Assembly (NCBI GenBank): GCA_903880005.1
Contig: CAIRNV010000291.1
Coordinates: 22,265-86,264, forward strand
DNA length: 64,000 nucleotides
From: an uncultured Verrucomicrobiota bacterium
GTDB lineage: Bacteria > Verrucomicrobiota > Verrucomicrobiia > Limisphaerales > UBA9464
Reading direction: 5' to 3'
Shown: positions 750 to 57,700 of the stretch, in pieces
Layout of the letters: each line of letters begins with the position of its first letter
Position numbering within the stretch: position 1 is the first letter of the stretch
Translations under genes and position numbers: made by a program
Notes under the pieces: model-generated
Databases searched by the model: none
The model's input: only the letters and a program-made list of their open reading frames with translations
What the model was told of the DNA's origin: nothing

Positions 750-2459
750 TCACACCGGCACCGTGACCCCGAGGTCGCCCAGGCGCGCCCACTCCACCCC
801 GGCGAGGGCCGGGACGTCCGAGGCCATGCGGTTGAACAAGCCCTCGATGGAACGCGATGGCTCCACCGCCCCGAGCGCCACCGCAAGCTCCTGGAGCCAT
901 TCCCACTCGGCACGGGCGTCGCCGCGTGGCTCGATGGCCTTGCCGAAGCGCTGGATCCGCCCCTTGCCGTTGATGAAAGTCCCCCGCTTCTCCACGTGCG
1001 CGCATCCCGGAAGCAACACGTGCGCCGCCGCCGTCGTGGCGTTGGGCAGGATGTCGGAGACGACCAGGTTCCCCACCCGGGCCAGCGTCTCGGACGAGAT
1101 GCCCGCCTTGGTCACGTCCTCGCCCAGCACCACCAACGTGCGAATCCGCCCCTCGTCGATGCCGCGCGCGATCTCCGGGATCGTCACGCCCGCCTCCGTG
1201 AACGACACGCCCGTCAGCCGCGCCCCCTGGGAATTCGGGTTCTTGTCGGCGGACACCAGCAGGCGATCGGGCTCGCCCTCGCGCGCAACGGTGTCCGTCA
1301 ACGCGCCCAGCTTGCGGGCGATGCGGGAGACCAGCCACAGCTCCTCGGTCGTCTGGCGCGAGCTGGCGACGAAGGCCACCGAGCCCTTGGGGGCCGACCC
1401 GAGCAAGGCGGCCAGTTCGGCGATGGCGGACGTCCAGTCGGACTCGGCCCCGCGAAGCAGCACCTTGCCGAGGCGGTCGGGCCGGTGAATCCAGCGGTAG
1501 TTCAGGCGCCCGGAGTCGCACATCCACGGGCCGTTGACCGCGTCGTTCTCCCGCGGCTCGTACCGGTGCACGATGCCCTCGCGGGAACCCACGGTGACGC
1601 TGCAGCCGGTGGCGCAGGAGGTGCAGACACTGGGGGTCTCCTTGAGGAACCAGACCCGCATCTTGAAGCGGAAGTCCTTCGAGGTGAGCGCCCCCACGGG
1701 GCAAAGGTCCACCGTGTTGAGGGTGTAGTTATTGTCGAAGGACCGCCCCGGGGCGGAGGCGATGGTGTTATAGGAGCCGCGGTTGACGATCCCCAGGGCA
1801 TCGTCCCCGGCGACGTCGCGGGTGAAGCGGACGCAACGCGTGCACAGGATGCAGCGCTCGTCGTCGAGCATGATGCGCGGCCCGAGGTCCACGGCCTTGG
1901 GCTTGTGGACCTTGGGCTCGACGAACCGGGAGGCCGCCTGGCCGTGCTGGACGGAGTACTCCTGGAGCTTGCACTCGCCCGCCTGGTCGCAGATGGGGCA
2001 GTCGAGCGGATGGTTGATCAGCAGCGACTCAAGCACCGCCTCGCGCATCTGCTTCGTGGCGGGGGACGCGGCATGGATCTCCATCCCGGGCGAGATGGGC
2101 GTGGCGCAGGCGATGGCCCCGCGCGGCGTCTGCGGCTCGTAGGGCAGGACCGACCTGGCCATCTTGGGCGACCCGTCCTCGTTCAGGACGGGCTTGCGGG
2201 TCGCCGGGTCCATCATGGGGGTGCTGAACTCCACGAGGCACATCCGGCAGTTGCCCGCCACCGGCAGCTTGTGGTGGTAGCAGTAATGCGGCACCTCCAC
2301 GCCCGCGATCTTGCAGGCTTGCAGCATCGTCGTCGGCTGCATCTTGCCCTGCCAATCGGGCATCGTCTTGGGCACCTCGATCTCGCGGCCATCCACCTTC
2401 ACGCGGACTTTCTCCACGGGCGGCGGCGCGGCGGGCGCGTTGGTCACGGCGTTCGACAT
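750..2459 (-). CDS. nuoG: NADH-quinone oxidoreductase subunit G (75 kDa Fe-S subunit)
   Basis: Part of ORF 750..2597. I place the start at the internal ATG 2459 (MSNAVTNAPAAPPPVEKVRVKVDGREIEV), 7 nt after the nuoF stop. Cys clusters CYHHKLPVAGNCRMCLVEF, HPLDCPICDQAGECKLQ and CILCTRCVRF are present, followed by a molybdopterin-like domain. Confidence 0.9.
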   Translation of the reverse strand: MSNAVTNAPAAPPPVEKVRVKVDGREIEVPKTMPDWQGKMQPTTMLQACKIAGVEVPHYCYHHKLPVAGNCRMCLVEFSTPMMDPATRKPVLNEDGSPKMARSVLPYEPQTPRGAIACATPISPGMEIHAASPATKQMREAVLESLLINHPLDCPICDQAGECKLQEYSVQHGQAASRFVEPKVHKPKAVDLGPRIMLDDERCILCTRCVRFTRDVAGDDALGIVNRGSYNTIASAPGRSFDNNYTLNTVDLCPVGALTSKDFRFKMRVWFLKETPSVCTSCATGCSVTVGSREGIVHRYEPRENDAVNGPWMCDSGRLNYRWIHRPDRLGKVLLRGAESDWTSAIAELAALLGSAPKGSVAFVASSRQTTEELWLVSRIARKLGALTDTVAREGEPDRLLVSADKNPNSQGARLTGVSFTEAGVTIPEIARGIDEGRIRTLVVLGEDVTKAGISSETLARVGNLVVSDILPNATTAAAHVLLPGCAHVEKRGTFINGKGRIQRFGKAIEPRGDARAEWEWLQELAVALGAVEPSRSIEGLFNRMASDVPALAGVEWARLGDLGVTVPV

Positions 2460-2466
2460 GGTCGGG

Positions 2467-3873
<1,407 letters not shown>

Positions 3874-3924
3874 GGTCGTGCTTGACTGGTTTGGTTTCCT
3901 CTATAGCCTCACGCGCCTATCGAC

Positions 3925-3998
3925 TGCCCGATGGTGTAACGGTAGCACAGCAGACTCTGGATCTGTTTGTCATGGTTCAAATCCATGTCGGGCAGCCA
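3925..3998 (+). tRNA. tRNA-Gln (anticodon CTG), CCA encoded
   Basis: Manual fold. Acceptor stem TGCCCGA/TCGGGCA. D-arm region GGTGTAACGGTAGCAC. Anticodon stem GCAGA/TCTGT with loop CT-CTG-GA. T-arm CATGGTTCAAATCCATG. Discriminator G plus CCA, 74 nt in total. Coordinates were cross-checked against the overlapping track ORF 3882..4331. Confidence 0.85.
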
Positions 3999-4120
3999 AC
4001 CTCCGCCGAGGCTGGCCAACGTCGAGTCCCCCGCCCTGCAATCCACGCCCCACAACGCCCCGCCCCACAACGCCCCGCAGAAGGCTCGCGCGCCGTGGCC
4101 ATGTCCTGCCGAAGGCCCTT

Positions 4121-4624
4121 TCACCTCGACCCTCCCTTCCCACTGCCGGCCGCCACGATCCGGTCGCAATCCGCCGTCGTGCACCGCTCCACCAAGTCGT
4201 CGTTCACCATCACCACGGGGGCCGTGCCGCAGCTCGCAAGGCACTCGACAAACTCGACCGTGAAGCCGCCGTCGGGCGTCGTCTGCGGCCCATGCCGGCC
4301 GGCGTCCAGGCCGAGCTTCTCCACGAAGTGACGCCGGATCGCGGCCGATCCAGCCAGGGCGCAGCTCAGCGTTCGGCAGACCTTCACGTGGGTGCGACCC
4401 AGGGGCTGCTGCCGGAACATGGGGTAGAAGGTGACCAGCTCGTGGACGTTGATCGGCTGCAACCCCAGCTTCGCCGCCGTCCATTCGACGGCCTCGTTCG
4501 ACACGTGGCCGAAGTGCTCCTGCAACGCATGCAGGAACATCAGGGACGCGCTTCGCCTCTGTGGATAATGCGTGGCCAGCTCGTCGAGCTGCGCCTCCAG
4601 TGCTGCGGGTACTTTGAAGCTCAT
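4121..4624 (-). CDS. nuoE: NADH-quinone oxidoreductase subunit E (24 kDa, 2Fe-2S)
   Basis: 167-aa ORF with the thioredoxin-like 2Fe-2S pattern VCRTLSCALAG ... ECLASCGTAPVVMVND. It lies between nuoD and nuoF. Confidence 0.9.
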   Translation of the reverse strand: MSFKVPAALEAQLDELATHYPQRRSASLMFLHALQEHFGHVSNEAVEWTAAKLGLQPINVHELVTFYPMFRQQPLGRTHVKVCRTLSCALAGSAAIRRHFVEKLGLDAGRHGPQTTPDGGFTVEFVECLASCGTAPVVMVNDDLVERCTTADCDRIVAAGSGKGGSR

Positions 4625-12085: not shown

Positions 12086-12195
12086 CAACGAGGCATCGGG
12101 ACGCCGGGAGCACGCCCGTCCTCGGGCTCCGGCGTCCCGCCCCGGCTCGCGGCGGCAACCCTCCCGGCCCTCCATGCGCCGGGAGCAGCGTGGCA

Positions 12196-12250
12196 CCGGC
12201 ATGCTCCCGCTGATCCCTGCAAGGCAAGCGGCTGGAAGCCGCTTCCACTT
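12196..12250. repeat. partial copy of the GC-hairpin mosaic element (hairpin AAGCGGCT-GGA-AGCCGCTT)
   Basis: cggcatgctcccgctgatccctgcaaggcaagcggctggaagccgcttccac matches 57569..57619 at about 45 of 52 positions. It lies between convergent genes. Confidence 0.6.
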
Positions 12251-12378
12251 TCACCGGGTCTGACGGCTTTTCCACGTTTCCACTGGGTGAGGGCTCGGAT
12301 GGTCCCCCAGGGCCTCTCTGCCTTGATGGGACGGCGATTTGCTCGCCTTGGAGCCCTCTTCAATCGCCGGCCATAGGT

Positions 12379-18881: not shown

Positions 18882-18977
18882 GGGGAAAAGGACAACTGGA
18901 AGATTGCCGTCATTCAAGCCTTCCATCCGGCAAAGCCGGAAAAGGCCGCTCCTGGCCCAACGGCATCGTCCCGGCCT

Positions 18978-19111
18978 AGCCGGAACGATGCCATGGGGGG
19001 GGGACGTGACTGCGCCGCGGATTCCCTCGCAACGCGAGGAGCGAGCGAGGGACGAAGAGTGGTGCAAGCAGATCGAGCCAGCACGACCGACCCAACTGAA
19101 TCGTCCCGGCT
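18978..19111. repeat. MITE-like inverted-repeat element, divergent long copy (copy 1)
   Basis: Begins agccggaacgatgcc and ends ccaactgaatcgtcccggct. The right half matches the other copies (gcaagcagatcgagccagcacgaccga). It abuts copy 2. Confidence 0.7.
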
Positions 19112-19112
19112 T

Positions 19113-19279
19113 AGCCGGAACGATTCAGTTGGGAGGGAAGTGATTGCGAAGCAGATGCTTGCGCAAGCCGAGGAGTGAGCGAGGCGCGGGCCGGCCCGAG
19201 GCCCGTAACGAGCGAAGGACGAAGGATTTGCGCAAGCAGATCGAGCCAGCACGACCGATCCAACTGAATCGTCCCGGCT
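19113..19279. repeat. MITE-like inverted-repeat element, long form (~167 bp, copy 2)
   Basis: Terminal inverted repeats are AGCCGGAACGATTCAGTTGG on the left and CCAACTGAATCGTCCCGGCT on the right. It is nearly identical to 57248..57414 and, in inverse orientation, to 25017..25183. Confidence 0.85.
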
Positions 19280-19920
19280 TAGGCCTTCGCCGGGGCCTTC
19301 GGCCGCAGGCGGCGCACGACGGCTGCCGCCCCGCACAAGCCGGCCCCGATGGCGGCCCACTCCGAGGGCTCGGGCACGGCGGTGATGGTGATCGTGTTGT
19401 TGCCGGGAAGGTTCAGCGTCTGCGAATCCCCGACACTTGCATTGAAGTCGCTGAGGGTCGCAGCGGCGAACTGCAACTGGCCCGAGATCGTAGTTCCCGA
19501 GATGTATCGATTCGGGAGTCCGATGGCGACGTAGGGGGTGTCCGGGGCGGGAAACGGGAACGTCGCTCCCTGAAAGCCGAAAGTCTGCCCCGAGAAGCCC
19601 GTGGACGGGACAGAACTGCCCGGCAAGCCCAGGACTGAAGACGCATGGATGTAGATGTCCACGGGCGTGATGCCGTCATTGAAGATCAAGCCATTCACGG
19701 GAAACGGGGAAGCTGAACTGAAGGTCGCGCCTCCCGGATTCCCCCCTGCCTGGAAATACAGCAGCCACCCGCTGGTGTTGAACGAGCCTTGGTAGCTGAT
19801 GGTGACGCCGGTGGCGTCTTGGACCATCTGGATGGCAATGAGGTTTTGCGCCTGGATCGACGCGCCAGATGCCGCGGCGACGATGCATGCGAGCTGACGG
19901 AGCTTGGACAGATGCTTCAT
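19279..19920 (-). CDS. PEP-CTERM sorting-domain protein
   Basis: The internal ATG at 19920 gives the signal peptide MKHLSKLRQLACIVAAASGASIQA. The C-terminus VPEPSEWAAIGAGLCGAAAVVRRLRPK shows the PEP motif, a TM helix and a basic tail. Confidence 0.85.
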   Translation of the reverse strand: MKHLSKLRQLACIVAAASGASIQAQNLIAIQMVQDATGVTISYQGSFNTSGWLLYFQAGGNPGGATFSSASPFPVNGLIFNDGITPVDIYIHASSVLGLPGSSVPSTGFSGQTFGFQGATFPFPAPDTPYVAIGLPNRYISGTTISGQLQFAAATLSDFNASVGDSQTLNLPGNNTITITAVPEPSEWAAIGAGLCGAAAVVRRLRPKAPAKA

Positions 19921-20082
19921 ACGGATGTTTCTCCCATTGTTGAAGGGCTCCGCATCGCCACGCCCTGCGGCCAAATGCAGGGAACGCTGAGATGCACAAA
20001 AACCCTTCCCATTACCTTCGCAAGAAGGCCGAAGCATCTTTCAACCATTCTCAACATTTGTTGGGACCCGCGACACCGCCCG

Positions 20083-25016: not shown

Positions 25017-25183
25017 AGCCGTAACGACCCTCTTGGATCGGTCGTGCTTGCTCGATCTGCCTCTGCAAATCCTTCGTCCTTCGCTCGTTACGGGCCGCGA
25101 GCTGGCCCGCGCCTCGCTCACTCCTCGGCTTGCGCAAGCATCTGCTTCGCAATCACTTCCCTCCCAACTGAATCGTCCCGGCT
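25017..25183. repeat. MITE-like element, long form, inverted orientation (copy 3)
   Basis: agccgtaacgaccctcttggatcggtcgtgcttgctcgatctgc...cgcaatcacttccctcccaactgaatcgtcccggct. It fills most of the 293-nt gap between the mutS stop and the ECF sigma start. Confidence 0.85.
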
Positions 25184-27984: not shown

Positions 27985-28065
27985 CCCGGAACGATTCAGT
28001 TGGATCGGTCGTGCTGGCTCGATCTGCTTCGCCATCACTTCCCTCCCAACGGAATCGTCCCGGCT
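27985..28065. repeat. MITE-like element, short form (~81 bp, copy 4)
   Basis: cccggaacgattcagttggatcggtcgtgctggctcgatctgcttcgccatcacttccctcccaacggaatcgtcccggct. This is the two ends of the long form, without the ~85-bp internal module. Confidence 0.8.
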
Positions 28066-28144: not shown

Positions 28145-28921
28145 ATGTTGAACACGGAACCTTTGGTGGCGTTCATCCGGGAACTCGCGGACGCCAGCGC
28201 GCGCGAAATCCTGCCGTACTTCGGCCGCAGGGAGATGGGGCTGGAGATGAAGTCGGACGACACCCCGGTGACGGTGGCGGACCGCGAGGCCGAGCGCGTG
28301 ATGCGGCGGATGATTGAGGCCCGCTTCCCGGGGCATGGGATCGTGGGCGAGGAATTCGGGACGGTGCGCGGCGACGCGGAGTTCGTGTGGGTGCTGGACC
28401 CGATTGACGGCACGAAGTCCTTCATCTCGGCGGTGCCGCTGTTCGGGACCTTGATCGGCCTGCTCCACGAGGGGACCCCCCTGCTGGGTTGCATCCACCA
28501 ACCCGTGCTGCGCCAGCTCATGATCGGGGACGGCCAAGTGACGACGCTCAATGGGTCGCCCGTACGGGCCCGCGCGTGCCGGTCGTTGGCCGACGCGACG
28601 ATGGTGGTGACGGACCCGTTGCATCCCGGGCAGTACCGGGACGGGGCGCGCTACGACGCGTTGTCGAGGAAGGTGCGGGTGGTGCGGACGTGGGGGGATT
28701 GCTACGGCTACCTGCTGGTGGCGGCGGGATGGGCGGACCTGATGGTGGACCCGATCATGAACCCGTGGGACTTGCAGCCGGTGATCCCGATCATCCGGGG
28801 ATCGGGGGCCATGATCACGCAGTGGGCCGGGGGCCCGGCGGAGGCCCGGGGCGCGGACTCCGCGATCGCGGCGACGCCGGGCGTGCACGCGGAGGCCTTG
28901 GCCGTGTTGAACGGGGCCTGA
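28145..28921 (+). CDS. inositol monophosphatase family protein (possibly histidinol-phosphatase type)
   Basis: ATG at 28145 inside track ORF 25310..28921 (MLNTEPLVAFIRELADAS). IMPase motifs are present: DDTPVTVADREAE, WVLDPIDGTKSF and WDLQP. Confidence 0.85.
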   Translation: MLNTEPLVAFIRELADASAREILPYFGRREMGLEMKSDDTPVTVADREAERVMRRMIEARFPGHGIVGEEFGTVRGDAEFVWVLDPIDGTKSFISAVPLFGTLIGLLHEGTPLLGCIHQPVLRQLMIGDGQVTTLNGSPVRARACRSLADATMVVTDPLHPGQYRDGARYDALSRKVRVVRTWGDCYGYLLVAAGWADLMVDPIMNPWDLQPVIPIIRGSGAMITQWAGGPAEARGADSAIAATPGVHAEALAVLNGA

Positions 28922-28952
28922 GCCGGAACGATTCGGTTGGATCGTTACGGCT
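28921..28952. repeat. hairpin-only minimal copy of the MITE-like termini (copy 5)
   Basis: AGCCGGAACGATtcggttggATCGTTaCGGCT. The two inverted termini are joined directly, and the copy starts at the last base of the IMPase TGA stop. Confidence 0.6.
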
Positions 28953-29054
28953 GAGCCGGAGGCGAATCCGCGGCGCCGTCACGTCGGGCTTCCATCGCGC
29001 GTTTTTCCGGGATTCCCCACGGGGCCGTCCTTGGGGCAAGCTCGGGGCTACGTC

Positions 29055-31774
<2,720 letters not shown>

Positions 31775-31775
<1 letters not shown>

Positions 31776-31847
31776 GCCGGAAAGCCTCAGTTGGATCGGT
31801 CGTCCTTGCTTGATCTGCTTCGCCATCACTTCCCTCCCAATTGAACC
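31775..31847. repeat. MITE-like element, short form with degenerate right end (copy 6)
   Basis: agccggaaagcctcagttggatcggtcgtccttgcttgatctgcttcgccatcacttccctcccaattgaacc. It starts at the last base of the valS TGA stop. Confidence 0.7.
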
Positions 31848-31848
31848 T

Positions 31849-32060
31849 AAAAACGGCAGTGGCTGTGGGGATCCGTCAGACCCTCAGGTGGAGCCAAAGG
31901 CTTGGCCCATGCTGTAGGCCGCGTGCCCTCACGCGGCGGCCAGGATGCCGCATTTCCGAGCGTCTCTGGGGCAGAGTGGTAGCGGCATCCTGCCGCTGGA
32001 CGTGATCCAGCCAGAGCCGAGACGGCTCTGCCGCGTTTCCGCCGGGTGAGGGCACCCGGC
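31849..32060. repeat. GC-hairpin mosaic element, copy A
   Basis: The ~150-nt core 31849..31999 aligns with 57436..57585 (aaacggcagtggNtgtggggatccgtcagNccctcaggtNgagccaaaggcttggNcatgctgtaggccgcgtgccctcacgcggcgg...gcggcatcctgccgctgg). It contains the stems GCCGCGT/ACGCGGC and AGGATGCCGC/GCGGCATCCT. Hairpins CAGAGCCG-AGA-CGGCTCTG and CCGGGTG-AGGG-CACCCGG follow the core. Confidence 0.7.
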
Positions 32061-38164: not shown

Positions 38165-38380
38165 TTGAACACAGGGGTTCCTTGAAGGGGCCGCGACGTT
38201 GAGGCGTGGCCCATGCCAGACTTGGATGGAGTTGCGGGAACCCCGTGAGACCCGGGGACGGTTCCGCCACGGTATCGGGTTACAAACCCCCATGTCGCAA
38301 GACGGCCACTGCTGCGGTTCGCCGCAGTGGGAAGGCGGGGGCGAGGATGAGACCCGGAGTCCGGATATCGCGCCAACCAA
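38165..38380 (+). promoter_or_regulatory. cobalamin (B12) riboswitch aptamer
   Basis: The core elements appear in order. GGGGTTCC...GCGGGAACCCC-GTGAGA-CCCGGGGACGGTTCCGCCACGGTA can be compared with the E. coli btuB leader GGGAAUCCAGUGCGAAUCUGGAGCUGACGCGCAGCGGUA. Next comes GCCACTG-(hairpin CTGCGG/CCGCAG)-TGGGAAGGC. Last is a B12-box-like CCCGGAGTCCGG, matching the YCMGGAGACCKG consensus at 11 of 12 positions. Confidence 0.75.
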
Positions 38381-47327: not shown

Positions 47328-47392
47328 GCCCCTTGCTAGGCAGTTGCCCCGGATGGAACAAGGAAATTGTCGGGCACGCAGCACCTGCGGGG

Positions 47393-47426
47393 CCAGCACG
47401 ACCGACCCAACGGGATCGCTTCGTCC
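47393..47426. repeat. fragment of the MITE-like element (copy 7)
   Basis: ccagcacgaccgacccaacgggatcgcttcgtcc compares with the canonical ccagcacgaccgatccaactgaatcgtcccggc. It lies in the divergent gap between the pseudopilin-like gene and zwf. Confidence 0.5.
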
Positions 47427-55319: not shown

Positions 55320-55438
55320 GGGACGGGCTTCGTGCATTGCGGCACAGGACCAAGCATCGACGAGGATCTGGCCAAGGGAGCCCCAACCTTCACGACCGAC
55401 CCCATCCAATCGATTTGGCTAATCTCTCCGAACTGCCC

Positions 55439-55948
55439 ATGCCCAACGCCCGCGCATCCCTTGCCTTGGTCGCGCTCGCATGCATCGCCGCCGCCAGGGC
55501 GGCCCAGACAACGCCCGAAACACCGCCCACCGAACCCCCGCCCCCTCCCCGCTCGTCCGTAGCCAAGGCCCGGTCCGGCGTCACCCGCCCCTTCGGCAAT
55601 GGCACGATCACCCGCCGGTCCGATGCCACCACCTCCACCACCCGGCCCTTCGGCGGCGGATCCATCACCCGCGAGCACCCCGCAAAAGGCAAGCCCCTCA
55701 GCGCCTCCACCCGGCCCTTCGGAACCGGCACGATCACGCGCTGGTCCGACGGGACCACCACTCAAACGCGTCCGTTTGGCAACGGAACCGTCATCACCCA
55801 ATCCAAGCCCGGCCAACAAACCGTCCGGGGACAATCGCGCCCTTATGGAACAGGCTCCATCACCACATGGAGCGACGGGTCCCGAAGCACGACGCGTCCC
55901 TTTGGCCAGGGCGTCCTTCAGCAGGACCAGCCACCCAAGAAACCCTGA
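55439..55948 (+). CDS. secreted tandem-repeat protein (six RP[FY]GxG repeats)
   Basis: The internal ATG at 55439 gives the signal peptide MPNARASLALVALACIAAARAAQ. Six repeats follow: TRPFGNGTITRRSD, TRPFGGGSITRE, TRPFGTGTITRWSDG, TRPFGNGTVITQ, SRPYGTGSITTWSDG and TRPFGQGVL. Confidence 0.7.
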   Translation: MPNARASLALVALACIAAARAAQTTPETPPTEPPPPPRSSVAKARSGVTRPFGNGTITRRSDATTSTTRPFGGGSITREHPAKGKPLSASTRPFGTGTITRWSDGTTTQTRPFGNGTVITQSKPGQQTVRGQSRPYGTGSITTWSDGSRSTTRPFGQGVLQQDQPPKKP

Positions 55949-56040
55949 CGTCATCGCAGCTTAACGGGCACGGATCAGGGAGGGGGGGCGGCACCCATGC
56001 GCGGGATGGCGAGCGAAGCACGAGGCTTTAGCTGAAGGGG

Positions 56041-56077
56041 CCAGCAAGCACGACCGACCTCATTGAATCGTCCCGGC
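56041..56077. repeat. fragment of the MITE-like element (copy 8)
   Basis: ccagcaagcacgaccgacctcattgaatcgtcccggc matches the right end of the long form. It is preceded by gaggctttagctgaa, which resembles 57422..57436. Confidence 0.5.
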
Positions 56078-56160
56078 CCAACCTTGGAGGAAGCCCAAGT
56101 CCTGCGGTTGCACTTTCAGGCCGTTCCCCGCAGGCTGCCCGCGACTTTTGGAACGAAGAA

Positions 56161-57243
56161 ATGAAACCTGTCTTGAGCATCCCTTCCGGCGGGGCGCTGG
56201 ATTTCCTGTCCCTCGGCGCCCTCGTGCATCGACTCGACCCCGGCATCATTCCGTTTCGCAAGGCCACCGAGTGCAAAATCCACGTCAGCGGCGGTGAGTT
56301 TAATTGCGCGGCCAACCTCCAGGATTGCTTCCGCCTCAATACCGGCATCGCCACCGCGATGGCGGATTACCCCATCGGCGACCTCATCGCCGAGCGCGTG
56401 CGTGCCATGGGCGTGAAACCCTTCTACAAGCGGTTCAAGCATAACGGCGTCAACGGCCCCAACATGGCCACCGTCTATAGCGACCAAGGGCTCGGGGTGC
56501 GCGCCCCCGTCGTCTTCTACAACCGGAGCAACGAGGCCGCCGCCCAGCTCAAGCCCGGCGACTTCAACTGGAGCGAAATCTTCGGTGCAGGCGTCCGTTG
56601 GTTCCATAGCGGCGGCATCTTCGCCGCGCTCTCCCAAACCACCGGCGACCTCATCATCGAGGCCATGAAGGCCGCCAAGGCGGCCGGCGCGGTCACCTCC
56701 TTCGACCTCAATTACCGCGAGAAGCTCTGGAACATCTGGGGTGGCCAGGAAAAGGCCTTGTCGGTCATGAAGCGCATCGTCGAGCACGTGGACGTCCTCG
56801 TGGGCAACGAGGAGGACTTGCAAAAGGGCCTCGGCTTGAAGGGCCCCGATGTCCACGCCGCGTCCAAGCTCGACCCGTCCGTCTTCGTCGCCATGATGGA
56901 CGACGTCGTCAGGAGCTTCCCCCAGGTCAAGGTCGTCGCCACCACCCTCCGCGAGGTCCATTCCACCAACCGACATAGCTGGGGCGCCGTCGCATGGATG
57001 GACGGCCAGACCTACCAAGCGCCCACCTGCGAACTGGACGTGCACGACCGCGTTGGGGGAGGCGACGGGTTTGCCTCGGGCCTGTTCTACGGCCTGCTGG
57101 CAGGCGAGCCGCCTAAGGAATGCGTGAAGCTAGGATGGGCCCACGGGGCTTTGCTCACCACGTTCCCCGGCGACACCACCATGGCCACCCTCGAGCAAGT
57201 CAAGGCCTTCGCCCAAGGCGGATCGGCTCGAATCCAAAGGTGA
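56161..57243 (+). CDS. PfkB-family carbohydrate kinase (KdgK-like)
   Basis: 360-aa ORF with the C-terminal PfkB signature DRVGGGDGFASGLFYGLL and mid-protein FDLNYREKLW. Confidence 0.8.
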   Translation: MKPVLSIPSGGALDFLSLGALVHRLDPGIIPFRKATECKIHVSGGEFNCAANLQDCFRLNTGIATAMADYPIGDLIAERVRAMGVKPFYKRFKHNGVNGPNMATVYSDQGLGVRAPVVFYNRSNEAAAQLKPGDFNWSEIFGAGVRWFHSGGIFAALSQTTGDLIIEAMKAAKAAGAVTSFDLNYREKLWNIWGGQEKALSVMKRIVEHVDVLVGNEEDLQKGLGLKGPDVHAASKLDPSVFVAMMDDVVRSFPQVKVVATTLREVHSTNRHSWGAVAWMDGQTYQAPTCELDVHDRVGGGDGFASGLFYGLLAGEPPKECVKLGWAHGALLTTFPGDTTMATLEQVKAFAQGGSARIQR

Positions 57244-57247
57244 CCTA

Positions 57248-57414
57248 AGCCGGAACGATGCTGTTGGGAGGGAAGTGATTGCGAAGCAGATGCTTCCGCA
57301 AGCCGAGGAGTGAGCGAGGCGCGGGCCGGCACGAGGCCCGTAACGAGCGAAGGACGAAGGATTTGCGCAAGCAGATCGAGCAAGCACGACCGATCCAACT
57401 GAATCGTCCCGGCT
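57248..57414. repeat. MITE-like element, long form (copy 9)
   Basis: agccggaacgatgctgttgggagggaagtgattgcgaagcagatgc...gcaagcagatcgagcaagcacgaccgatccaactgaatcgtcccggct. It lies 4 nt after the kinase stop and is near-identical to 19113..19279. Confidence 0.85.
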
Positions 57415-57435
57415 AAGCCGGGAGGCTTTAACCTG

Positions 57436-57700
57436 AAACCGGCAGTGGGTGTGGGGATCCGTCAGGCCCTCAGGTCGAGCCAAAGGCTTGGCTCATGCTG
57501 TAGGCCGCGTGCCCTCACGCGGCGGCAAGGATGCCGCACCACCGGGCGTCCCTGGGGAGGAGTGGCGGCGGCATCCTGCCGCTGGTGCATGCTGGGCAAG
57601 CGGCTGGAAGCCGCTTCCACCTTACCTTGGCCTTTATGGAAGGGGGCAGTAGGCCGGGTTCCCCCACCCGGCGGACGGAGCTGCTGAACCCCTACCGGTT
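57436..57700. repeat. GC-hairpin mosaic element, copy B
   Basis: The core 57436..57585 aligns with 31849..31999. It is followed by hairpin AAGCGGCT-GGA-AGCCGCTT (shared with 12.2 kb) and hairpin CCGGGTt-ccccc-ACCCGG. Confidence 0.7.

What the first reader, a model, noticed from the sequence alone, without database searches (positions are those of the whole stretch)
18978..19279. Dispersed MITE-like inverted-repeat element family: at least 9 intergenic copies in 64 kb, here in tandem
Elements are bounded by inverted termini (AGCCGGRACGATTCAGTTGG ... CCAACTGAATCGTCCCGGCT). They occur at 18978..19111, 19113..19279, 25017..25183 (inverted), 27985..28065, 28921..28952, 31775..31847 and 57248..57414, with fragments at 47393..47426 and 56041..56077. 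The long copies are ~167 bp and nearly identical across loci. All copies are intergenic and most lie directly after 3' gene ends. Flanks are often TTA/TAA-like (cTTAgccgg...ccggcTTAgg), which could be a TA/TTA target duplication as in IS630/Tc1-mariner-derived MITEs. That link is an inference, and no transposase lies in the window. At junctions the termini form ~18-bp perfect hairpins, so the copies may also act as terminators or RNA stabilisers. This density, about one copy per 7 kb, implies hundreds of copies genome-wide.
Basis: seen in the sequence. Interest (0 to 1): 0.6.

Follow-up and report, generated by a model that had tools for sequence, protein, structure and literature searches.

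The report
IS1380-type MITE family, Verrucomicrobiota-wide
The repeats are real miniature transposons that share their ends and CTNAG insertion site with IS1380-family insertion sequences across Verrucomicrobiota, which makes them an abundant, apparently undescribed but ordinary kind of mobile DNA.

Summary
The window, from a 68% G+C Verrucomicrobiota genome in a lake metagenome, carries 9-11 intergenic copies of one inverted-repeat family. There are three 167-bp copies, one 134-bp variant, two 81-bp short forms, a 28-bp ends-only form and several fragments.

The 20-nt terminus occurs letter for letter in at least 39 other assemblies, 38 of them labelled as Verrucomicrobiota lineages, ahead of many unrelated interiors. 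It is also the terminus of a 1,489-bp insertion sequence whose 463-aa transposase scores above the NCBIfam IS1380 cut-off.

Full insertion sequences and MITEs are both flanked by CTNAG, and the middle base matches on the two sides. So the target is CTNAG, with a duplication of 5 bp or of its TNA core. TAA and TGA stop codons can supply that core, which fits copies abutting three stop codons.

Contigs of related strains lack two of the window's copies and keep a single CTNAG at each site. Source-metagenome depth suggests several hundred to about 1,000 copies. A collinear 1.5-kb IS contig sits at 4-5.5 times the organism's depth.

Nothing supports a terminator or small-RNA role. Verdict: a new member of a known kind, of moderate interest.

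The parts
18957..18975 (+). Remnant right terminus (CCAACGGCATCGTCCCGGC) of an older copy. It is followed by CTA and then the next copy.
   Evidence: (3 mismatches to the terminus on the - strand) and the sequence.
18978..19111 (+). 134-bp variant copy with a divergent left half and a 34-bp internal deletion.
   Evidence: nhmmer E 6e-18 over profile positions 1-167 and the alignment.
19113..19279 (+). Long form, 167 bp. It is flanked by CTTAG at 19110-19114 and 19278-19282. The right TTA is the reverse complement of the TAA stop of the minus-strand gene 19279-20037.
   Evidence: It folds as one long hairpin at -88 kcal/mol, z -8.3.
25017..25183 (-). Long form in reverse orientation.
   Evidence: (I1, I2).
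27985..28065 (-). Short form, 81 bp. It equals the long form minus 85 bp lost between two AAGCAGAT repeats. It lies between the divergent starts of mutS and the IMPase-family gene.
   Evidence: The same 85-nt junction occurs in other contigs (joint 19148>19234, 8 shared letters).
28918..28955 (+). Ends-only mini form: CCGG..CCGG at 28923-28950 (28 nt) between two CTGAG. The first TGA is the stop of the IMPase-family gene. The form is absent from a related strain.
   Evidence: A DNA contig in X13 joins 28917 to 28951 (record 13), and RNA contigs in X23 and X24 do the same.
28956..29010 (-). Degenerate remnant of an 18978-type copy. The mini form sits at its end.
   Evidence: Inverted pair I15, 18990-19024 with 28964-28998, 80% complementary, and the sequence.
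31775..31847 (-). Short form that starts at the TGA stop of valS (31773-31775). Its far terminus is degenerate and abuts a second repeat family.
47390..47426 (+). Right-end fragment, about 40 nt upstream of zwf.
   Evidence: profile positions 131-164, E 0.005; D1, I20.
56009..56077 (+). Right-half fragment, 69 nt, between a secreted repeat protein gene and the pfkB-family gene.
   Evidence: profile positions 96-166, E 2e-7.
57248..57414 (+). Long form, 5 nt after the pfkB-family stop. It is flanked by CTAAG at 57245-57249 and 57413-57417. It is absent from a related strain.
   Evidence: A contig in X5 joins 57249 to 57418, skipping 168 nt.

Best explanation
These are non-autonomous miniature inverted-repeat transposable elements. 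They are moved in trans by the DDE transposase of a clade of IS1380-family insertion sequences found almost only in Verrucomicrobiota.

The transposase recognises the shared ends, CCGGAACGATTCAG(TTGG). It inserts at CTNAG and duplicates that pentamer or its TNA core.

CTNAG is rare in this G+C-rich genome, and insertions inside genes are lost. Copies therefore pile up between genes. They often sit exactly on a TAA or TGA stop codon, which supplies the TNA.

Each insertion recreates CTNAG at both of its ends. New copies can then land next to old ones, which gives the tandem array at 18957-19279.

Length variants arise by internal deletion. The 81-bp form comes from deletion between two AAGCAGAT repeats, and the 28-bp form keeps only the ends.

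What is shown: the family, its ends, the duplicated flanks, the IS partner in other genomes, and two empty sites in related strains. What is inferred: trans-mobilisation itself, and that the cognate IS sits in this very genome.
For: 1. Family and ends. There are 11 terminus matches against 0.01 expected, and the profile finds all copies.

2. Spread. It is followed by at least 7 unrelated interiors.

3. Partner.
- 1,489-bp elements carry the same ends and a 463-aa ORF.
- The ORF scores 232.8 bits on NF033539 (IS1380 family transposase), cut-off 180, and matches PF13701.
- 17 full copies were found, 8 of them in one long-read MAG.
- 41 loci spanning 53-100% amino-acid identity mostly keep CCGGAACGATTCAG...CTGAATCGTTCCGG with CTNAG beside it.

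4. Duplication.
- 16 of 17 IS copies have the same CTNAG on both sides, with the middle base A, T or G.
- 15 of 31 MITE pairs show a perfect repeat.
- Where both flanks fit CTNAG, the middle base matches in 15 of 18 pairs.
- IS1247, of the same family, makes a 5-bp repeat (PMC3281130, Table 2).

5. Empty sites.
- X13 DNA contig record 13 joins 28917 to 28951. RNA contigs in X23 and X24 show the same joint.
- An X5 contig joins 57249 to 57418.
- Each empty site keeps one CTNAG (sequence).

6. Abundance.
- 893-971 contigs per run lie on the stretch.
- Summed depth over the element's interior is about 1,000-1,500 times the flank depth in four runs.

7. Cognate IS in the source samples.
- A collinear contig of 1,493-1,518 nt carries the same terminus.
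- Its depth is 4-5.5 times the organism's depth in five runs, across a tenfold range of depth.
- In X3, a loose end just beyond the IS terminus reads into a family-A MITE end.
Against: - The IS is therefore tied to this genome only through depth covariation in metagenomes.
- The close IS type of L153 is absent from the source runs at 80% likeness.
- Family A shares only about 19-24 terminal bases with the IS, so it is not a simple deletion derivative of it.
- Several window copies lack a matching duplication: 25017 has CCAAG against CTAAG, and 27985 has CGAAG against GTAAG.
- A 3-bp and a 5-bp duplication cannot be told apart, because the flanking C and G are constant.
- Summed contig depth includes other organisms. 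In X13 the element-to-flank ratio reaches 2,200-4,500.
- The X5 empty site rests on one contig.
- No transposition assay exists.
Confidence: 0.85

Rival explanations
1. An IS630/Tc1-mariner-derived MITE that duplicates TA or TTA.
For: The flanks contain T and A (TTA, TAA) next to the ends.
Against: The T and A are separated by a variable base that is itself duplicated (CTAAG, CTTAG, CTGAG). Every autonomous element found with these ends encodes an IS1380-family transposase. No IS630-type gene turned up in the window or in the loci examined.
Confidence: 0.02
2. A REP/BIME-like palindromic repeat in which the unit is the junction hairpin. It would be spread by a RAYT (Y1 transposase) or kept by a host DNA-binding protein.
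For: Head-to-tail copies make 20-bp palindromes. The remnant terminus at 18957-18975 and the adjoining left end at 18978 carry complementary variant bases (GGCATCG against CGATGCC). Ends-only forms of 28-58 bp exist.
Against: Single copies have a conserved, asymmetric 167-bp interior and a duplicated flank. The ends match those of a DDE insertion sequence. The ends show no GTAG or CGTC head of the kind described for REPs (PMC3733652 abstract). No Y1 transposase domain appears in the window ORFs scanned.
Confidence: 0.03
3. Copies of a structured RNA gene or a cis-regulatory RNA (terminator, attenuator or small RNA) rather than insertions.
For: The element has a very stable fold (-88 kcal/mol, z -8.3). 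The whole-length hairpin holds in 86.9% of cells across 25 copies from many genomes, against 29-40% when partners are slid, and 13 pairs change on both sides. The elements appear in metatranscriptome contigs.
Against: Copies occur in both orientations relative to the upstream gene. There is no Rfam match and no T-run after the hairpins. Copies are present or absent between strains, with duplicated flanks. The element-to-flank depth ratio is about ten times lower in RNA (120-400) than in DNA (2,200-4,500) from the same sample. The covariation comes mostly from two subfamilies, and the free RNAalifold consensus is weak at -8.6 kcal/mol.
Confidence: 0.05
4. MITEs as in the best explanation, but many copies have also been co-opted as hairpins after the stop codon that stabilise or end transcripts. 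Selection, not only target choice, would then keep them at 3' ends.
For: Six of eight loci lie just after a 3' end. The hairpin is kept with compensatory changes. An RNA contig runs from valS 29 nt into the MITE (X24 record 29).
Against: Target preference plus loss of genic insertions already explains the placement. There is no U-tract. Copies also lie in 5' regions (27985, 47390, and 18957-19279 relative to the downstream gene). There are no data on transcript ends or half-lives.
Confidence: 0.15

Closest known systems
IS1380-family insertion sequences (IS1380, IS1247, ISEcp1)
   Same: The partner element has a single DDE transposase above the NCBIfam IS1380 cut-off. Its inverted repeats start with CC, which I recall as the family's usual start. 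Its short direct repeat is compatible with 5 bp, as for IS1247 (PMC3281130).
   Different: The partner is shorter: 1,489 bp against 1,672 bp for IS1247 in that paper. It has a strict CTNAG target. It seems confined to Verrucomicrobiota and is accompanied by many MITE families. The window itself holds only the MITEs.
Stowaway and Tourist-type MITEs of plants, which share only their ends and target with Tc1-mariner or PIF/Harbinger transposons (from general knowledge)
   Same: Many unrelated interiors share one terminus and one target with an autonomous element. The copies are abundant and lie near genes.
   Different: This system is bacterial, the transposase family is different, and the copy number is far smaller.
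piggyBac-derived MITEs of animals (from general knowledge). IS1380 transposases serve as the prokaryotic outgroup of piggyBac in PMC10813416.
   Same: The transposase superfamily is related. The target is short, specific, palindrome-like and A/T-centred, and it is restored as a single copy at empty sites.
   Different: The target is CTNAG rather than TTAA, the host is prokaryotic, and I did not test the excision chemistry.
Correia elements of Neisseria and the ERIC/RUP-type bacterial MITEs (from general knowledge)
   Same: They are 100-170 bp, have terminal inverted repeats, fold as long hairpins, occur in hundreds of intergenic copies and include length variants made by internal deletion.
   Different: The ends, target (TA for Correia) and partner family all differ. 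No promoter or RNase III role has been shown here.
REP/BIME elements with RAYT transposases
   Same: They are abundant extragenic palindromes, often after 3' ends and in head-to-tail pairs.
   Different: These elements have a DDE-type partner, a duplicated flank and a long asymmetric interior. They lack the GTAG or CGTC head (PMC3733652).

Membership tests
MITE (non-autonomous DNA transposon of bacteria) | Small size with no coding capacity | tested here: met
   Copies are 28-167 bp. They lie outside ORFs that have coding signal.
MITE (non-autonomous DNA transposon of bacteria) | Terminal inverted repeats | tested here: met
   The 20-nt ends give 11 matches against 0.01 expected. Inverted pairs I13 and I16 show them directly.
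MITE (non-autonomous DNA transposon of bacteria) | Target-site duplication | tested here: met
   CTNAG lies on both sides with a matching middle base in 15 of 18 informative MITE pairs. The empty sites keep one CTNAG.
MITE (non-autonomous DNA transposon of bacteria) | Many dispersed copies | tested here: met
   There are 9-11 copies in 64 kb, another window of the genome has the family, and 893-971 contigs per run lie on the stretch.
MITE (non-autonomous DNA transposon of bacteria) | Ends and target shared with an autonomous element | tested here: met
   A 1,489-bp IS has the same ends and CTNAG flanks in many Verrucomicrobiota assemblies.
MITE (non-autonomous DNA transposon of bacteria) | Autonomous partner present in the same genome | tested here: inconclusive
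   A collinear contig of about 1.5 kb sits at 4-5.5 times the organism's depth in five runs. The assembly itself could not be searched.
MITE (non-autonomous DNA transposon of bacteria) | Insertion polymorphism between close relatives | tested here: met
   Sites 28918-28950 and 57250-57417 are empty in related strains.
IS1380 family (for the partner element) | Transposase matches the family model above its curated cut-off | tested here: met
   NF033539 scores 232.8 bits against a cut-off of 180, and PF13701 gives E 1.4e-39.
IS1380 family (for the partner element) | Single ORF, short inverted repeats, direct repeat of 4-5 bp | tested here: met
   There is one 463-aa ORF in 1,489 bp, the inverted repeats are 14-18 nt, and the CTNAG repeat is compatible with 5 bp. 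A 3-bp core is not excluded.
IS630/Tc1-mariner-derived MITE | TA dinucleotide target and duplication | tested here: not met
   The flank is C-T-N-A-G with a variable, duplicated middle base.
IS630/Tc1-mariner-derived MITE | IS630-type transposase with the same ends | tested here: not met
   All autonomous elements found with these ends are of IS1380 type. Own genome not searchable.
REP/BIME with RAYT | 20-40-nt palindrome with a GTAG or CGTC head | tested here: not met
   The ends read AGCCGG or CCGG, and the unit has a 167-bp asymmetric interior.
REP/BIME with RAYT | RAYT gene in the genome flanked by the repeats | not testable with these tools
No Y1 transposase domain appears in the window ORFs scanned.
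Known structured RNA family or intrinsic terminator | Rfam match, or hairpin followed by a T-run | tested here: not met
   The only Rfam matches at gathering score are a tRNA and a cobalamin riboswitch elsewhere in the window. Only chance-level matches fall on the element. No terminator-like site falls on any copy.

The most novel reading that the evidence does not exclude
The elements are more than parasites. Their 20-nt ends are letter-identical across at least 39 Verrucomicrobiota assemblies, and family A keeps its whole-length hairpin through compensatory changes. On this reading they have been co-opted phylum-wide as hairpins placed on stop codons, acting as REP-like RNA-end, recombination or DNA-structure elements. 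The IS1380-type transposase would then serve as their maintenance enzyme.
Probability: 0.12. Interest if true: 0.6.

Novelty: new member of a known kind. Interest (0 to 1): 0.4.

Why it matters
- It gives a partner and a target rule to a repeat that may make up a few percent of some Verrucomicrobiota genomes. That share is my own estimate from copy number times element length.
- Logan contigs end at the copies, so the repeat also breaks metagenome assemblies of this phylum.
- I found no paper that describes IS1380-linked MITEs or these termini.
- The CTNAG rule explains why copies abut stop codons without invoking any function.
- The presence or absence of copies between strains gives ready-made population markers.
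- The IS and MITE pair offers a simple system for studying target choice in the prokaryotic relatives of piggyBac.

Tried and rejected
I obtained no genome-wide copy count and no direct transposase search of the assembly.
- Family-specific 31-mer. An exact 31-mer of the family found nothing in genome contigs, so the window's genome is not in that collection.
- Rfam. The gathering scan and the permissive scan gave nothing relevant.
- Consensus fold. The free RNAalifold consensus of 25 copies was weak at -8.6 kcal/mol. The structure test that followed used the fold of one window copy, so it leans towards that structure.
- Terminator scan. No site fell on any copy.
- L153-type IS. Laying it on the source runs found only terminus matches. 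A more distant relative, L191, did find a collinear contig.
- Other partners. ORFs next to solitary termini in ten other loci looked like ordinary host genes by eye. I did not scan them, and they gave no second kind of partner.
- L168. Its transposase copy has an internal stop and could not go into the alignment.
- Literature. Searches for the terminus letters found only unrelated primer sequences.
- Earlier-findings index. It holds no look-alike of the transposase.
- Hairpin-selection reading. I considered treating the complementary variant bases at the 18957/18978 junction as evidence for hairpin selection. I rejected this as too thin, because the same positions vary freely in other copies, for example 57248.

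Full report
**What is there**

The window has 64-69% G+C. Its MutS is most like those of uncultured Verrucomicrobiota, at 67% identity at best. Its sequence is held at 0.93-0.97 of sampled words by four lake-water metagenome runs.

The terminus AGCCGGRACGATTCAGTTGG occurs 11 times at up to 3 mismatches, against 0.01 expected.
- Long forms of 167 bp at 19113-19279 (+), 57248-57414 (+) and 25017-25183 (-). They are 90-96% identical.
- A 134-bp variant at 18978-19111.
- Short forms of 81 bp at 27985-28065 and 31775-31847.
- Fragments at 47390-47426 and 56009-56077.
- An ends-only form at 28921-28952.

I add two remnants: a right terminus at 18957-18975, and a degenerate reverse copy at about 28956-29010 (pair I15).

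The short form equals the long form minus 85 bp lost between two AAGCAGAT repeats. Other contigs of the source metagenome show the same junction.

All copies lie between genes. The neighbours are ordinary core genes, including the nuo operon, mutS, valS, zwf, tpiA and folD. No transposase domain appeared in the 39 ORFs scanned.

**The ends are shared far beyond this genome**

It returned 70 loci from 39 assemblies. All but one are labelled as Verrucomicrobiota lineages, among them Limisphaerales, Chthoniobacterales, Opitutaceae and Verrucomicrobiales.

At least seven unrelated kinds of interior follow the terminus. The window's own kind, family A, is one of them. It recurs in many assemblies.

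**The autonomous partner**

In locus L120 the terminus and its inverted copy lie 1,489 bp apart and enclose one 463-aa ORF. That protein scores 232.8 bits on NCBIfam NF033539, IS1380 family transposase, where the cut-off is 180. It also matches Pfam PF13701.

- Close relatives gave 17 full copies, eight of them in a single long-read assembly.
- A search with an alignment reached 53-100% amino-acid identity in 41 loci. Nearly all are labelled Verrucomicrobiota, and most of those re-examined keep the same ends.
- The protein family has 1,453 clusters at E up to 1e-10 in public data.
- Family A shares only the terminal 19-24 bases with the IS.
- The interiors of L123, L131 and L145 look like the IS subterminal regions printed, so I read them as deletion derivatives. 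I compared them by eye only.

**Target and duplication**

- 16 of the 17 IS copies have the same CTNAG on both sides, with the middle base A, T or G.
- Of 31 MITE pairs, 15 have a perfect repeat.
- Where both flanks fit CTNAG, the middle base matches in 15 of 18 pairs.

The target is therefore CTNAG. Because the outer C and G never vary, I cannot tell a 5-bp duplication (ends CCGG) from a 3-bp one (ends GCCGG). A 5-bp repeat is on record for IS1247 of the same family (PMC3281130, Table 2).

This refutes the IS630/Tc1-mariner reading. The T and A are not adjacent, and the base between them is duplicated.

**Why copies sit on stop codons**

The TNA core can be a TAA or TGA stop.
- The valS stop (31773-31775) and the IMPase-family stop (28919-28921) are the TGA of CTGAG.
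- The stop of the minus-strand gene 19279-20037 is the TAA of CTAAG.
- The pfkB-family stop lies 2 nt before CTAAG.

In the empty allele of the IMPase site the stop is already there, so the stop was the target and not a product of the insertion.

CTNAG is scarce. The window has 48 sites and only 39 outside the copies, the fewest among palindromic pentamers of the same composition.

Each insertion recreates CTNAG at both of its ends. This explains the tandem copies that share one pentamer at 19110-19114 and again at 28951-28955.

**Mobility**

A 1,283-nt DNA contig of a related strain in run X13 has depth 24.3 and differs at about 2% of positions. It runs straight from 28917 to 28951 and so lacks 33 nt, which is the 28-nt element plus one CTGAG (record 13). 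RNA contigs from another sample of that study (runs X23, X24) show the same joint.

A contig in run X5, at the organism's depth there (11.6), joins 57249 to 57418. It lacks 168 nt, which is the 163-nt element plus one CTAAG. This second case rests on a single contig.

The other copies examined are present in those strains, and contigs break inside them.

**Abundance**

- In the four source runs, 893-971 contigs lie on the 1.3-kb stretch, almost all on the element.
- Summed depth over the element's interior is about 1,000-1,500 times the flank depth in each run.
- The junction contigs listed have depths close to that of the organism.
- The tool warns that other organisms add to this sum. In a different lake the ratio is higher still, at 2,200-4,500.

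I therefore read the result as several hundred to about 1,000 copies. That fits the observed one copy per 7 kb. Earlier notes record the family in another window of the same genome.

**Is the partner in this genome?**

The assembly could not be searched. The L153 type of IS is absent from the source runs at 80% likeness.

The L191 type is 74% identical in protein to the query. It picks up a collinear contig of 1,493-1,518 nt that ends in the shared terminus. Its depths are 106-157, 97, 56-69, 50 and 19-22 in five runs. The organism's depths in those runs are about 32, 23, 12.5, 10 and 3-4.

The steady ratio of 4-5.5 suggests four to five IS copies in this organism. In X3, a loose end just beyond the IS terminus reads into a family-A MITE end. 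This is suggestive and not proof.

**Function beyond mobility**

A long copy folds as one hairpin at -88 kcal/mol, z -8.3. Across 25 copies from many assemblies that hairpin holds in 86.9% of cells, against 29-40% when partners are slid, and 13 pairs change on both sides.

Those changes come mostly from two subfamilies. The structure came from one of the sequences, and the free consensus fold is weak.

- No Rfam family matches.
- No hairpin with a T-run falls on a copy.
- Copies occur in both orientations.
- In the same sample, the element-to-flank depth ratio is about ten times lower in RNA than in DNA.
- An RNA contig runs from valS 29 nt into the MITE.

A terminator role therefore has no support. 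A stabiliser role is untested.

**Comparison and novelty**

This is a MITE family with an IS1380-type partner. IS1380 transposases are used as the prokaryotic outgroup of piggyBac (PMC10813416). The short, specific, palindrome-like target that is restored at empty sites fits that kinship.

Searches for IS1380 with MITE, for Verrucomicrobia with MITE, and for the terminus letters found no description of it. I rate it a new member of a known kind. It is abundant and tidy but not surprising in principle.

Noticed in passing
window 31841-31999, 57427-57585 and 12179-12251: A second repeat family of about 150 nt (89% identity between the first two) directly abuts the MITE copies at 31775 and 57248. 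It is followed by different G+C-rich hairpins, and contigs of other strains replace the 31952-32040 segment with other letters.
   Followed up: partly
window 19300-20068 and 55320-57250: In the related strain of run X13 these MITE-bounded stretches have almost no contig at 95% likeness, while the flanks sit at depth about 24. MITE-flanked segments may be strain-variable.
   Followed up: no
window, whole: CTNAG occurs only 48 times in 64 kb (39 outside the MITEs). It is the rarest of the eight palindromic N-centred pentamers of the same composition, which range from 48 to 145. Only four CTAAG/CTTAG sites lie outside the copies.
   Followed up: partly
window 38235-38370 and 3925-3995: A cobalamin riboswitch (60 bits) and a tRNA gene reach Rfam gathering scores.
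   Followed up: no
L120 2124-3622: One full IS copy sits inside a host ORF, so the host reading frame runs on into the transposase frame as a 726-aa chimeric ORF.
   Followed up: no
L168 about 1500-2640: A 45%-identical, stop-interrupted relative of the transposase in a Chthoniobacterales MAG still ends in ATCGTTCCGG followed by CTTAG. The end and the target therefore outlast much protein divergence.
   Followed up: partly
window 18978-19111 versus 28956-29010: The G-run variant (GCCATGGGGGGGGGACGTGAC...) forms a subfamily of its own with at least two copies in the window (pair I15).
   Followed up: no
Logan contigs of runs X1-X4 and X13: Short-read contigs end inside or at the edges of nearly every MITE copy. 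This family is therefore a direct cause of fragmented Verrucomicrobiota assemblies.
   Followed up: no
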